Positions 13,401-16,729 of a stretch of DNA of 64,000 bases are shown in pieces. The stretch is from the NCBI GenBank assembly GCA_030390025.1, contig CM059432.1, forward strand, positions 37,450,001-37,514,000, written 5' to 3'. The notes beneath the pieces were generated by a model. It saw only the letters and a program-made list of their open reading frames with translations, searched no databases and was not told the DNA's origin. Within the stretch, counting starts at the first letter, position 1; each line of letters begins with the position of its first letter. The stretch comes from Squalus acanthias. Lineage: Eukaryota. Position numbers and translations under genes: made by a program.

Positions 13401-14918
13401 GGCAGCTACCTCCAGGAAAAACTCCTTCCCCCCATCTATGGCCCCTAAGGCTGGCGCGGTCTGCAGATCCCTTTTTAACTTCTCGAAGGCTGCTTGGCAG
13501 CCCTCGTCCCAAAGCCACTCTACTCCCTTATGGAGGAGTCGGAGGAGCGGCGCCGCTGTGGCCGCATAATCCTCGATAAAATCCCTGCAGTAACCGGTCA
13601 GTCCCAAGAAGGACCTCACACCCCTTACGTTGTTGGGAATCGGTAATTCTTGCACCGACTCCCTCCTTGCTTTGTCTATGGCTCTTTCCCCAGCGCGTAG
13701 GGTCAGTCCCAGGAATTTTACTTCCTGCTGACCGATACGTGCTTTCTTTGGGTTTACTTTAAAACCCTTTCTCGCTAACAGCTCCAATAACTCGTCCAGC
13801 AGTGGTCCGTGCTCCTCCCTTGAGTCCGTAAATAGGAGCAAATCATCCACATACTGTACTATCTGATTGGGCTGACTAAACTCCTTTAAACTTCCTGCCA
13901 TACACTGGTGAAAAATACTGGGGCTATTGTGGAAACCTTGTGGCAAGCAGTTCCACGTGTACTGTTGCCCTTTAAACGTAAAGGCAAACTTGTACTGGTC
14001 CTCTCGCCGCAGCGGGATGGACCAAAAACCGTTCGAGATATCCAGCACCGTGAACGTGGTCGCGGACGCTGGGATGCTCCCTATTAGGTCAGCAACTGCT
14101 GCTACTGTGGGCGCGCAGGCGGGAATGTTACTGTTGAGGACTCTGTAGTCCACCGTGGCTCTCCACGAATTATCCGGCTTCCTAACCGGCCATAATGGGG
14201 AGTTCACGTGTGTGGCTATCGGCCTCAACACGCCCTGCTGCACCAAGGAAGACATTGCTGCCTCCATATCGGGTTCTGCTTCTTTGGGGAAGTTATACTG
14301 CTTTTGGGGTCGGGTCATGGGGTCCCCATCTACGCTGACCTCAAACCCGACCACCCTCCCACAATCGTGCTTGTGGGTTGCAAACGCGTGCATATTATCT
14401 GTCACGTACGTTTGCATGTCCGTTGGGACATCTGCGACCATAAGCCTGAGGTCGTAGCCTCCGGATGGCTGTACGGTACACAGGACCCCTGTTTCTTCCT
14501 CCCCTTGAATTACCATTACCTCGCCTTTTTCACCTTTAGCCCCCCAGAGACAGTGATTTCTGAGGTCCACGAGGATCCCGTGTCCCGCTAGCAGATCGGA
14601 CCCGAGAATACCTCTTCCACCCCCCTTTTGCCATGCCATCAGTATACACTTCCACTTAAGGCGAAGTGTCCCTAAACGAATGGATAGCGGGAGGGAAAAC
14701 GTGCCAGCCTGTTCTTTCCCTGTGAACCCTGCTAGCGTGAATGGGACCTTGGTAGATAGCGGCGAGTCAAAAGGGTCATCTGTATGGATTATGGTGCAAG
14801 AAGCTCCCGTATCCAACAAATAACTGCCCTTTTGTTTCTCTACCTCCATCTCCACCACAGGTCGCCTCCACGCATCATAGCTGAGCGGACACAGGTAGAC
14901 GGGCTGTGCTGGTTCTAG
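10455..14918 (-). CDS. pol: Pol: protease-RT-degenerate RNase H-RNase H-integrase plus C-terminal extension; intact, in frame with gag
   Basis: LLDTGAS; LPQGFHNSP; YVDDLL; YVDGS/AQQAEL/SDS/GNRQADALA; H..H..C..C; QIDY, SDQG, ERMNRTLK; GPY. Frame open back to the gag stop. Confidence 0.96.
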   Translation of the reverse strand, partial: LEPAQPVYLCPLSYDAWRRPVVEMEVEKQKGSYLLDTGASCTIIHTDDPFDSPLSTKVPFTLAGFTGKEQAGTFSLPLSIRLGTLRLKWKCILMAWQKGGGRGILGSDLLAGHGILVDLRNHCLWGAKGEKGEVMVIQGEEETGVLCTVQPSGGYDLRLMVADVPTDMQTYVTDNMHAFATHKHDCGRVVGFEVSVDGDPMTRPQKQYNFPKEAEPDMEAAMSSLVQQGVLRPIATHVNSPLWPVRKPDNSWRATVDYRVLNSNIPACAPTVAAVADLIGSIPASATTFTVLDISNGFWSIPLRREDQYKFAFTFKGQQYTWNCLPQGFHNSPSIFHQCMAGSLKEFSQPNQIVQYVDDLLLFTDSREEHGPLLDELLELLARKGFKVNPKKARIGQQEVKFLGLTLRAGERAIDKARRESVQELPIPNNVRGVRSFLGLTGYCRDFIEDYAATAAPLLRLLHKGVEWLWDEGCQAAFEKLKRDLQTAPALGAIDGGKEFFLEVAASGDSLSAVLLQERHGKLRPVVYSSRVLTDVERSFSNCERHLLATHWAVKRSAIFTGLSPITLLTHHTPTKMLLDGRIKDGTVSSARIARWTLLLSQLDIRVKGLCEPRLAANLVYPGTAHRCSVEGVWDVNIGLRAGIHPTGREIYVDGSSTVSAGERLTGCGVYDPAADLALAIKLPSTMSAQQAELSAVVYVVTHPDIFPTPYTICSDSMFTCNSCTEYLAIWSRRGYTSADGRPLTVKPLLEKILAAAVGEEGEIFIHKVKAHSSTEPRGEGNRQADALAREGARDGTFWNPYRTGPIAAVRGGDGNTGNTRVALPLDLKTVQAQDPALKAVLKTIAEGRQVEGPYSTATLSVKEGMLFREEQWVVPQQHRREFLQLAHEGPGAGHPGPEVTWQRVEQAGWWPGLREQVREFCANCLVCAANNPDPQKRKVPMGHVRRVEGPWQSIQIDYIGPLPTTQGGYKYCLVLVDVFSKWVEAFPCRTATALGTAKILVREVFSRWGLPRFVESDQGSHFTGQVMQNTLMLLGIEGKWHVAHNPQSSGIVERMNRTLKEKLRKETRNSPQKWAEVLPLVLMGVRASQSKSTGYSPHEVMTGRLMRTPTHVLAPVLTEGQLQEISRDKFAQTLLERLKQVYEQAAGNMGRQHQGNRLLLEPRKTRQWEVGDQVMVRNYARVGSLEPLYMGPYNIVDKASPMVYAVKVPRRTKWFHINQCKLYQPGAQGKTTGVNPANGKTQPQVGPQGTQAGVAACIRGRDIPDDHAAFFWSWGLDDEDPRVPWSDEDSADEHSDDDGWFQRNGLEGLGPLGRDPYGVDTQAAGPDSRRKELEEAGPAAMWFPEVWPPALNVQSSGEAEFASEGPPAGPSRAGPRTTSPEVREAESAEAGLAPVMEPQVIPLKVSGPGPSVTEPPPIAIPRRSSRVPQPRKMWSGPQAAPGRKFQVKITRVETGHIEAVTGCGRSEGRVSALPPSGRARSSLLRI

Positions 14919-16729
14919 TCATGGGGCACTATTAGACGGTCCTGCGGCACCTACGGGGCCGGTTGCGACCGCCACCTGTCCACGCGCATTCAAAACCATC
15001 TTGCGCATGACTCCTAACACTGCCTCGAGGTCTTCGGGAGAGGTGGGTGCCTTTGCTTCCTTAGCCGGGACAGGCGCCTGGGCTCGGACCGCGGGATTTT
15101 TATCCTTGGAATCCTTCCAAGGGTTCCTGCAGTGCTTGCGCCAGTGCCCTGTCTTCCCACACCCGTAACAGGCATTACTTGCCTGTGGGGCGCGATTACC
15201 CTCCTGATGCCACTCTCTTTGAGTCGGGGCTGCGGGTCGTACCTCATGTACTCTTCCCTTAAAGGGACGTGTTGCCATACCCCTTATGTTACGGTAACCT
15301 AACGTGAGTCGATTCAAGACCGACTCTTCCGTAAGGTTGAGGTCATTGGGATCGAACCAGGCTTTTGCCTGCTCTCTAACGGCTGGTAAACTGTTGGCTA
15401 TTATGCACCTAAGCCAATGAATTAAAGCGGCGCCTTCCACATCTTCGCGCTCGGGCGCACCTAGACAGCTGCGCTCATATACTGGCCACAGCCTGTCGGC
15501 AAAAACCTTCGGGGGTTCTCCCTCCATCTGCACTGTCTGTCCCACTCTAGCAAACGGACCTCCGTCGTTCGCTCCCACTACTTCTAGGACCTCATTTTTC
15601 AATTCCTCATAACTTTTATTACCCCTCTTGCTATCGCCTGAGAGACACTGAAGGACCGAGCTATCTAACGAGAACAGCAGCATTTTTGCTGTCTCCCCAT
15701 CATCGCAGCCGTTAATGGCTGCGGCTTGCTCAACTTCCCTGAAATGTACGGAAGGGTCGTCTATCTCGGTCAGCTTCCTTACGTGGTTTATCATGGCCCT
15801 CAGCTGATGTGAACTGTGAGGCAACACCAGCTGTCCGAGGAGATCCCCCGGTTCTTCCCCACCGTTTCTGCTTGGGCCCCTTTTAATCCCCGTTACTGGA
15901 TACAACGATCCCTTTTCTACTTCCTTTTCAACGGGCTCTTTTGTTTCTTCCGTTGCTTCCTCCCTAACCCAGGTTTCTGAATAGCTGGGTGGCGCGGAGG
16001 GCGCAGTGGCTACTACTTCTTCTGCTTTACTTGGTGGGGAATTTCTAAATCTCTCATTTACTAGCGGCTGGCGTGCCGACGGATTGATAAGGCACACCAT
16101 GCCGTTCGCATTATTCACGGCCTTTTTGAGGCTCTCTATCTCTTTTGGCAGGCGCTATGGTCGGCTCCCTGAAACTTATCCTCAAGGGCCAACTTATACG
16201 CCGACCTAACCCCCATTAAGCTCTCTTCTTGAGTTCTTATCTGGGCAGCTTGACGGTTACATCTTTCCTTCATCCTACTCTCGTTCAATTTTGCTTCAGT
16301 GATCTGGCACTCGAGATACTCTACCCTTGTTTTAAGGTAACTGGAGACTTCCTGGCTTTCCTGGCGTAACTCATTTAAACTCTTAATGAGCACCTCCCCT
16401 CCAGAAACCTTCTCCTCCATTTCCTCCTCTAAATGCTTGATTCGAGCTGTTAGCGCTGTATTGGTCTGGTTTGAAATCTGAACCTGCCTTTTGTAGCACA
16501 TAAGCCAGACTGCTTTCTCAACTGCCTTTTTATGCTCCTTACTATCAGTCCACCTTTCAGCTGCCTCTAGTGGGCTCTTATCCGCTAACAATTCGCTTAT
16601 CCACTTTTTAGTTAGATTAACCTTTCCAAATACATAATCCGCTATCTTTTCCTGCATCACATTTCGTACAGTCATTCCAAAATCTAACACACTACCCTCT
16701 CGCTGCCAGTGTCCTGCCGCGGTCGCCAT
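14919..16729 (-). CDS. gag: Gag (~600 aa) split by one frameshift near 16143; coiled-coil N-terminus, capsid-like region, CCHC knuckle
   Basis: ORFs 16136-16729 and 14919-16118 join by adding one A (CQKEIESLKKAV); CYGCGKTGHWRKHC; PSAPPPSY late-domain-like motif. Confidence 0.88.
16711..16728 (-). other. Primer binding site, tRNA-Arg(TCG)
   Basis: TGGCGACCGCGGCAGGAC is complementary to GTCCTGCCGCGGTCG+CCA, the 3' end of vertebrate tRNA-Arg(TCG) as I recall it; 5 nt from LTR end. Confidence 0.88.

What the first reader, a model, noticed from the sequence alone, without database searches (positions are those of the whole stretch)
14859..14921. Gag-Pol joined by an in-frame UGA with the CUAG readthrough motif
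Gag ends CCA-TGA-CTA-GAA and 20 open codons run in frame into the protease. UGA-CUAG is the established leaky-stop context of alphavirus nsP3/nsP4 and several mammalian readthrough genes. Gamma/epsilon-retroviruses use UAG with a downstream structure, and most others frameshift or splice. An unusual recoding solution for a retrovirus-like element.
Basis: partly seen in the sequence, partly recalled or inferred. Interest (0 to 1): 0.72.

Follow-up and report, generated by a model that had tools for sequence, protein, structure and literature searches.

The report
Leaky UGA stop joins retroviral gag-pol
An endogenous retrovirus in a shark- or ray-type genome ends its coat gene with the "leaky" stop signal UGA-CUAG and continues in frame into its enzyme gene, so it most likely makes its enzymes by occasional ribosome readthrough: a known retroviral strategy, with a signal better known from alphaviruses.

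Summary
Confirmed on the minus strand: gag ends CCA-TGA (14921-14919), then CTAG, and the frame stays open for 1487 codons of pol. The element is a two-LTR endogenous retrovirus inside Retroviridae, of the snakehead-retrovirus grade, probably in a cartilaginous fish.

The stop is not a private nonsense change: four Gags at 47-50% identity end at the same place. Whether CTAG is kept across copies is only indirectly supported. No frameshift route exists, and the first pol AUG lies inside the protease. Two hairpins are predicted from +10 (z -5.1, window chosen after the fact). Best reading: type II UGA-CUA readthrough (0.78), untested. This copy's gag has a frame break upstream.

Readthrough at a gag stop is standard, and UGA junctions are known in fish and frog retroviruses; a 2026 review lists no retroviral UGA-CUA. 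Read by eye, 7 of 24 published lokiretrovirus consensus sequences carry an unremarked in-frame TGA-CTA-(G/A)G, while 8 are fused ORFs. The scan noted the motif before in a fungal copia element (e1-7396033). New variant of a known kind.

The parts
14919..14921 (-). In-frame TGA ending gag
   Evidence: the only stop in this frame between 15400 and 14500
14915..14918 (-). CTAG at +4 to +7 (type II readthrough context UGA-CUA-G)
   Evidence: classification from PMC13517186 passages
14852..14912 (-). Predicted hairpin 1 (+10 to +70), candidate stimulator
   Evidence: 23 pairs with p>0.8. Weak on its own (100-nt window z -0.46), and refolds if +10/+11 are left out
14754..14851 (-). Predicted long hairpin 2 (+71 to +168)
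   Evidence: +10..+168 folds at -67.3 kcal/mol, z -5.1, 0 of 300 shuffles as low; ranks 6th by z and 3rd by energy of 117 gag-pol windows
10455..14918 (-). pol, open 1487 codons: protease (DTG 14813-14805), RT, tether, RNase H, integrase, long low-complexity tail; first AUG at 14849 (codon 24)
14922..16154 (-). gag 3' part (capsid-like region and CCHC knuckle about 15126-15173)
   Evidence: 47-50% identical to P0187, P0188, P0191, P0192
16136..16729 (-). gag 5' part (coiled-coil rich), from an AUG that overlaps the primer-binding site; in another frame than the 3' part in this copy
   Evidence: matches the N-terminal third of the skate Gags (52-54%) and SnRV Gag (E 7.6e-7)
16711..16728 (-). 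Primer-binding site, arginine-tRNA type
   Evidence: 13 of 18 to the array's tRNA-Arg(ACG) and to the SnRV site. Assignment to tRNA-Arg(UCG) is recalled and agrees with note e1-7806816; not tested here
16734..18332 (-). 5' LTR
5838..7388 (-). 3' LTR (18 mismatches in 1508 aligned bases, 8 blocks, against the 5' LTR)
7811..10258 (-). env, open 815 codons, RQRR cleavage site and C-terminal hydrophobic stretch
   Evidence: read from the sequence; no Pfam hit
5834..5837 (+). Target-site duplication ATTC, left copy (right copy 18333-18336); the provirus sits inside a related solo LTR within a tRNA gene array

Best explanation
This is the gag/pol junction of an endogenous retrovirus of the snakehead-retrovirus grade. 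Ribosomes translating the genomic RNA mostly stop at the UGA and release Gag. A few percent put in an amino acid (usually Trp, Cys or Arg at UGA; recalled), because UGA followed by CUAG terminates poorly, and go on to make Gag-Pol. A downstream hairpin may raise the rate. SHOWN: the sequence, the open pol frame, the conserved position of the Gag end, and the lack of a frameshift route. INFERRED: readthrough itself, its level, the role of the hairpins, and family-wide conservation of the CTAG letters. In this copy the signal is inherited but probably not reached from the first AUG, since gag has a frame break upstream.
For: (1) One stop only, gag and pol in frame. (2) 4 of 6 Gag relatives examined (P0187 from Logan; P0188, P0191, P0192 from the skate Rhinoraja; 47-50% identity) end 12-13 residues after the conserved VA(V/A)(A/T)TG anchor, against 12 here. 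The other 2 (P0189, P0190) break off earlier. (3) In contigs of 4 runs (3 coded organisms plus the commonest holder) the junction bin has depth in all 4. The 40 best-supported differences include places where the window differs from nearly all copies, but none lies in 14778-14993 (321 rows hidden). (4) SnRV (L001, identified by its length, 10688, and its UAG-GGC junction) has its stop at the same position, 29 codons before the motif match that begins two residues ahead of the catalytic Asp, against 33 here. (5) The first pol AUG is 12 codons before the catalytic Asp and inside the Pfam protease profile. In 6 frog Pol models the first Met is only 3 residues before it, so independent initiation would truncate the protease. 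(6) No X-XXY-YYZ slippery site lies between 15266 and 14775, and both other frames are closed near the stop. (7) UGACUAG gives at least about 1.3% readthrough alone, and Sindbis gives 2.0% without and 6.4% with its stem-loop (PMC13517186 passages). (8) The same context lies in frame at the gag end of 7 of 24 published lokiretrovirus consensus sequences (read by eye).
Against: No readthrough, RNA or protein data. No DNA of a second copy was seen letter by letter, so conservation of CTAG and of the hairpins is not directly shown; the relatives are proteins, and their stop codon and +4 bases are unknown. The closest retroviruses with DNA use UAG: of 96 loci, 64 show knuckle-stop-protease in frame, 62 with TAG, 2 with TGA-GG and 0 with TGA-CT (heavily redundant mouse gammaretroviral copies). 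Five other windows in gag-pol fold as unusually as the junction. A Met 12-13 residues before the catalytic Asp is shared with the nearest Pol relative, P0005. In Candida Tca2, a gag-UGA-pol junction did not direct readthrough in a yeast reporter (PMC2194720 abstract). This copy's gag is broken, so it may be decaying.
Confidence: 0.78

Rival explanations
1. Pol is made from a separate spliced mRNA, as in foamy viruses. The UGA is a plain stop and CTAG is incidental.
For: A weak acceptor candidate lies at 14881 (12 of 16 pyrimidines). An AUG with G at -3 and +4 lies at 14849, and a Met at about this place is shared with P0005. An F-like Env is also found in foamy viruses (recalled).
Against: Foamy pol is in a different frame with its own start (PMC8278194 passage); here it is in frame. 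The RT lies outside the foamy clade (100/100). An AUG-started product would lack the first strands of the protease. The 2 joints found near the junction in contigs do not have intron ends (contigs only, weak).
Confidence: 0.11
2. Pol comes from an internal promoter or re-initiation near the junction, or needs a non-local bypass as in Candida Tca2.
For: Tca2 precedent (abstract). AUG at codon 24 in good context.
Against: It would truncate the protease. Tca2 Pol still came from the gag-UGA-pol RNA. Retroviral Pol normally needs Gag to be packaged (established knowledge, recalled).
Confidence: 0.05
3. The TGA (or its CTAG context) is a private or lineage-limited mutation of a dead copy, for example CGA to TGA in a fused gag-pol frame.
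For: This copy has another lesion in gag. 8 of 24 lokiretrovirus consensus elements are annotated as one fused ORF, so fused frames exist in relatives of retroviruses.
Against: Gags at about 50% identity end at the same place. No difference at the junction among the best-supported variants in 4 runs. pol and env are fully open.
Confidence: 0.05
4. Ribosomal frameshifting bypasses the stop.
For: None found.
Against: pol is in the same frame as gag; no slippery heptamer near the junction; stops in both other frames (14917; 14934, 14931, 14877).
Confidence: 0.01

Closest known systems
Snakehead retrovirus (SnRV; locus L001) and SnRV-like ERVs
   Same: In-frame stop at the gag end ahead of the protease; single CCHC knuckle; coiled-coil-rich Gag N-part that aligns (E 7.6e-7); arginine-type primer site; RT 43.5% identical, the best among the 16 loci from the viral collection.
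   Different: SnRV uses UAG-GGC (type III context); this element uses UGA-CUAG (type II). The RT tree leaves the two in an unresolved basal group. RT identity is higher to coelacanth and frog ERVs (51-54%).
Retroviruses with a UGA gag/pol junction: SSSV (UGAAGA), ZFERV (UGACGA), Rhinella marina ERV (UGAAGU), XtERV-S (TGA)
   Same: In-frame UGA between gag and pol with presumed, untested readthrough (PMC13517186 section 4.1.2; PMC8278194 passages; SSSV-type junction seen in L012).
   Different: None of the three with a listed context has CUA (ZFERV's CGA resembles an alphavirus type II variant). I did not see the bases after the XtERV-S stop. SSSV-type RT lies in the gamma/epsilon clade (99/97).
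Type II UGA-CUA(G) readthrough: Sindbis/ONNV/CHIKV nsP3-nsP4, PSIV, mammalian UGACUAG genes
   Same: Same heptamer; optional downstream extended stem-loop starting about +9 to +16 (Table 1 of PMC13517186); here a hairpin is predicted from +10.
   Different: Unrelated viruses and genes. Readthrough is measured there and only inferred here.
Lokiretroviruses (Wang and Han, PMC7947760)
   Same: gag-pol-env with a dual RNase H and cleaved F-like Env. 7 of 24 published consensus sequences (Bsp, Ofa, Pyo, Sau, Cne, Dcl, Lro) have TGA-CTA-(G/A)G in frame at the gag end (by eye).
   Different: RT motifs differ, and the window's RT falls in the retrovirus clade (100/98) apart from proteins with the loki motif (99/98); AU p 0.047 against joining them. 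8 of 24 loki elements are annotated as single fused ORFs.
Fission-yeast Ty3/gypsy elements Tj1, Tosmo1-3, Tcry1
   Same: gag-TGA-CT(A/G)-pol, proposed readthrough; the stop is essential in Tj1 (bioRxiv 10.1101/2022.12.06.519325 passages).
   Different: Chromoviruses of fungi, not retroviruses.

Membership tests
Retroviridae (endogenous provirus) | LTR-PBS-gag-pro-pol-env-PPT-LTR with target-site duplication | tested here: met
Retroviridae (endogenous provirus) | Tether plus second RNase H; RT inside the retrovirus clade | tested here: met
   Pfam RT_RNaseH_2 and RNase_H; clade support 100/98 (29 chosen rows, RT only)
SnRV-like ERVs | RT forms a clade with SnRV | tested here: inconclusive
   Basal polytomy; grouping not rejected, AU p 0.141
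SnRV-like ERVs | Gag homologous to SnRV Gag, one CCHC knuckle | tested here: met
   E 7.6e-7 (N part) and 3.5e-4 (knuckle region) in pairwise BLAST; knuckle (below Pfam cut-off)
SnRV-like ERVs | Arginine-tRNA primer site | tested here: inconclusive
   13 of 18 to tRNA-Arg(ACG) and to the SnRV site, which itself matches Arg(ACG) 16 of 18; Arg(UCG) by recall and note e1-7806816
SnRV-like ERVs | UAG-GG junction as in SnRV | tested here: not met
   TGA-CTAG here, TAG-GGC in L001; a trait of SnRV itself, not known to define the clade
Lokiretrovirus | RT in the loki clade, sister to all retroviruses | tested here: not met
   (AU p 0.047, borderline). Loki stand-ins were picked by the NSP(A/S)EF motif seen in the paper's supplement, not by name
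Spumaretrovirinae (foamy) | RT in the foamy clade; pol out of frame with its own start; no CCHC knuckle | tested here: not met
   criteria from passages of PMC8278194 and PMC1224870
Gamma/epsilonretrovirus | RT in the gamma/epsilon clade; UAG-G junction | tested here: not met
Type II (UGA-CUA) readthrough signal | UGA followed by CUA, in frame between two coding regions | tested here: met
Type II (UGA-CUA) readthrough signal | Context conserved among relatives | tested here: inconclusive
   Stop position conserved; letters only indirectly
Type II (UGA-CUA) readthrough signal | Conserved downstream stem-loop with covariation | tested here: inconclusive
   Predicted; no alignment of relatives' DNA available; 2 variant letters seen both keep predicted pairs
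Type II (UGA-CUA) readthrough signal | Measured readthrough | not testable with these tools
   needs a reporter, ribosome profiling or mass spectrometry

The most novel reading that the evidence does not exclude
UGA-CUA(G) readthrough is an old, overlooked way of making Gag-Pol at the base of the retrovirus tree, possibly ancestral. It would be shared by this cartilaginous-fish lineage, part of the lokiretroviruses (sister group of retroviruses) and some Ty3/gypsy elements, with the UAG-plus-pseudoknot, frameshift and splice solutions derived later. The evidence does not exclude this, but repeated convergence on the strongest simple leaky context fits better: SnRV and the other basal loci use UAG-GG, and 8 of 24 loki elements (lamprey and frog included) are fused ORFs. 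The milder version, an unremarked and recurrent type II signal in vertebrate retroelements, I put at about 0.6.
Probability: 0.12. Interest if true: 0.8.

Novelty: new variant of a known kind. Interest (0 to 1): 0.47.

Why it matters
If true, it adds a third readthrough signal class to Retroviridae: the alphavirus/cellular UGA-CUAG context, next to UAG plus pseudoknot and the unclassified UGA sites. It also points to the same signal in part of the lokiretroviruses, whose Gag-Pol expression the describing paper does not discuss. That makes the evolution of Gag-Pol recoding at the root of retroviruses testable with a simple reporter and a survey of fish genomes. It does not change the general picture that these viruses make Pol by suppressing the gag stop.

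Tried and rejected
1. First guess, lokiretrovirus: dropped after comparing RT motifs and trees.

2. The host genome is not held, so copies could not be counted or aligned.

3. DNA of close relatives was not found in viral contigs, metagenome contigs or genome contigs. The 4 motif hits share only 16-18 bases and are chance. Alignment-based scans gave only distant retroviruses.

4. A search for longer, fused Gag-Pol forms found none; the tool calls this weak evidence.

5. No RNA holder listed. The one run guessed to be RNA is contigs only, so it says nothing on expression or splicing.

6. Rfam: 0 matches at E<=5 in 14500-17200.

7. The first 100 nt after the stop do not fold better than shuffles (z -0.46). 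The pseudoknot candidates are short 5-7 bp stems and were not pursued.

8. Loose ends at 14887 in two runs hint at diverged relatives that match the junction side but not the codons behind it. Their letters at the stop were not shown, so this was not used.

9. The Odin paper's text and 10 supplements gave no hits for the motif or for readthrough.

10. Literature searches that found no report of this junction or of loki readthrough. Subscription papers (the original SnRV paper, Gao 2003, Firth 2011) and repeat-database entries were not searchable.

11. SnRV env could not be compared (L001 stops at 7792).
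Full report
1. OBSERVATION

The minus strand reads ...GCC CCA TGA CTA GAA CCA GCA CAG CCC GTC TAC CTG.... The TGA lies at 14921-14919 and CTAG at 14918-14915. Upstream is a 411-codon frame ending ...SNSAP with a CCHC knuckle. The ESM Atlas places it with retroelement Gag clusters (score 0.94; a lead only). Downstream the same frame is open for 1487 codons: protease, RT, tether, RNase H and integrase. It is the only stop in that frame between 15400 and 14500. CTAG after a given stop is 1 in 265 by base make-up, and 1 of 187 near-TGA sense codons is followed by it. Because several leaky contexts exist, the real surprise is smaller (inference).

2. WHAT THE ELEMENT IS

It is a complete provirus: LTRs at 16734-18332 and 5838-7388 (18 mismatches in 1508 aligned bases), a primer site at 16711-16728, gag, pol, an open 815-codon env and a 4-base target duplication. 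It is inserted in a related solo LTR within a tRNA gene array. The nearest named relatives are a skate Gag (50%) and a sevengill-shark RT piece (67%), so the host is probably a cartilaginous fish (inference; earlier notes say the same).

A careful RT tree of 29 chosen rows puts it inside the retrovirus clade (100/98). It lies apart from five proteins with the lokiretrovirus motif (99/98), four foamy loci (100/100) and the gamma/epsilon group (99/97), in an unresolved basal group with SnRV and coelacanth and frog ERVs. A quick tree of 63 rows gave the same broad picture. Joining it to the loki rows is borderline rejected (AU p 0.047); joining it to SnRV is not rejected (p 0.141). Its Gag aligns with SnRV Gag. 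I call it SnRV-grade, not a proven member of that clade. Note e1-7789907 reached the same view; that is not independent support.

3. IS THE STOP REAL?

The Gag search returned 3 clusters, 6 sequences with members. Four run to the end and stop 12 (three skate proteins) or 13 (one Logan protein) residues after a conserved anchor, against 12 here. Two break off earlier. SnRV has its stop at the matching place ahead of the protease. So the stop position is old, not private.

For the letters themselves I have only indirect evidence. Contigs of 4 of the 20 runs that hold the stretch were laid on 14400-16900. All four cover the junction bin. The 40 best-supported differences include sites where nearly all copies differ from the window, but none in 14778-14993; 321 rows were not shown. 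No genome was held, and no close DNA relative was found in the three collections.

4. HOW POL IS MADE

Frameshifting is out: pol is in the same frame, no slippery heptamer lies near the junction, and the other frames are closed. Independent initiation is unattractive. The first AUG is codon 24, inside the protease profile (RVP matches from codon 17) and 12 codons before the catalytic Asp. In 6 frog models the first Met is 3 residues before it, and SnRV has no Met in the first 60 codons. Against this, the nearest Pol relative has a Met at about the same place. A spliced pol mRNA cannot be excluded without RNA; one weak acceptor lies at 14881.

Readthrough fits the layout and the context. By passages of the 2026 review PMC13517186, UGA-CUA is the type II signal: UGACUAG alone gives at least about 1.3%, and Sindbis gives 2.0% without and 6.4% with its stem-loop. 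Here a hairpin is predicted at +10..+70, directly followed by a long one at +71..+168. That window folds at -67.3 kcal/mol, z -5.1, 0 of 300 shuffles. But I chose its ends after seeing the fold; it ranks 6th of 117 gag-pol windows by z and 3rd by energy, and the first 100 nt alone are unremarkable. Two variant letters seen in other copies both keep predicted pairs, too few to count. The hairpins are a candidate, not a finding. The Tca2 abstract (PMC2194720; lead from note e1-7396033) is a warning that a gag-UGA-pol junction need not work in a reporter. Confidence in readthrough: 0.78.

5. WHAT IS KNOWN

Readthrough of the gag stop is the strategy of gamma- and epsilonretroviruses and SnRV (passages of PMC1224870 and PMC3835772). 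Section 4.1.2 of PMC13517186, read whole, lists UGA junctions in SSSV (UGAAGA), ZFERV (UGACGA) and a toad ERV (UGAAGU), and UAGGGC for SnRV; no retroviral UGACUA. XtERV-S has an in-frame TGA (passages of PMC8278194). Fission-yeast gypsy elements have a conserved TGA-CT (passages of bioRxiv 10.1101/2022.12.06.519325). In my own tally of 96 loci, 64 had knuckle-stop-protease in frame: 62 TAG, 2 TGA-GG, 0 TGA-CT. Most are redundant mouse gammaretroviral copies, and the SSSV-type L012 was missed by the pattern.

The lokiretrovirus paper (PMC7947760; parts 1-2 of 4 of the text read) never uses the words stop codon, readthrough or frameshift. I read passages of its supplement by eye; the file was cut when stored and line breaks can hide matches. 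Of 24 consensus elements:
- 7 have TGA-CTA-GG or TGA-CTA-AG at the gag end, in frame with the annotated pol (Ofa, Pyo, Sau, Cne; Bsp, Dcl, Lro).
- 8 are annotated as one fused ORF (Oja, Sri, Ame, Sme, Str, Xtr, Pma, Pfl).
- 1 has a gag ending in TAA (Tfu; not followed up).
- 8 were not determined.

Passages of PMC12440569, bioRxiv 2024.03.25.586437, PMC9040795, PMC12193657, PMC4977317 and PMC5210030 say nothing on this junction. Searches found no report of it; subscription papers and repeat databases were out of reach.

6. VERDICT

It works like a type II readthrough site. It belongs to Retroviridae, of the SnRV grade. It is a new variant of a known kind: the strategy and the UGA are known in retroviruses, while the CUAG context appears unreported there. 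The recurrence in part of the lokiretroviruses raises the interest and argues that the context is selected. The patchy spread (SnRV UAG-GG, fused loki ORFs) favours convergence over shared ancestry, which I give 0.12. Interest 0.47.

Noticed in passing
window 16136-16154 (-): gag is split into two frames in this copy. Related Gags run through the region in one frame, and contigs of all four runs laid include forms without the break, so it is private to this copy or an assembly error.
   Followed up: partly
window 4358-5837 and 18337-18481 (+); also 1-1395, 27089-28625, 32979-34670, 37930-39621: The provirus sits inside a related solo LTR, and at least four more LTR copies of the family lie in the window. 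4301-5837 and 27089-28625 are 99.9% alike and sit at the same place of the tRNA repeat unit, which suggests array duplication or site preference.
   Followed up: partly
window about 1300-4350 and 18480-30100: Tandem array of 1.24-kb units, each with tRNA genes (ARAGORN: Ala-TGC, Met-CAT, Arg-ACG; 32 calls in all). More tRNA-like stretches in the unit were not called.
   Followed up: no
window 16727-16729 (-): The first AUG in the gag frame overlaps the primer-binding site, and the skate Gag model begins at the same Met. Note e1-7806816 reports PBS switching in this family.
   Followed up: partly
window about 10458-11240 (-): pol carries a Pro/Gly/acidic tail of about 260 residues after integrase with no Pfam match.
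   Followed up: no
window about 9650-9960 (-): The Env N-part has a Cys-Trp-Tyr-x-Cys pattern like an immunoglobulin domain (read); earlier notes e1-7807389 and others report this.
   Followed up: no
window 10260-10450 (-): AT-rich spacer between pol and env, with a pyrimidine-rich AG that looks like the env splice acceptor.
   Followed up: no
PMC7947760 supplement, elements Ofa, Pyo, Sau, Cne, Bsp: After the TGA-CTA these lokiretroviruses keep a V-Y-(F/L/R) motif about 10 codons on; the window has V-Y-L at codons 7-9. Possibly a shared protease N-terminal element or chance; read by eye.
   Followed up: no
L078, L095: Two metagenome retroviral loci have an in-frame TGA-GG junction, that is UGA in a type III context.
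   Followed up: no
window 32540-33079, 41160-41729, 43808-44317: LINE-type fragments: RT hits in the first two; the third looks like a CR1-type ORF1 piece (recalled motif).
   Followed up: no
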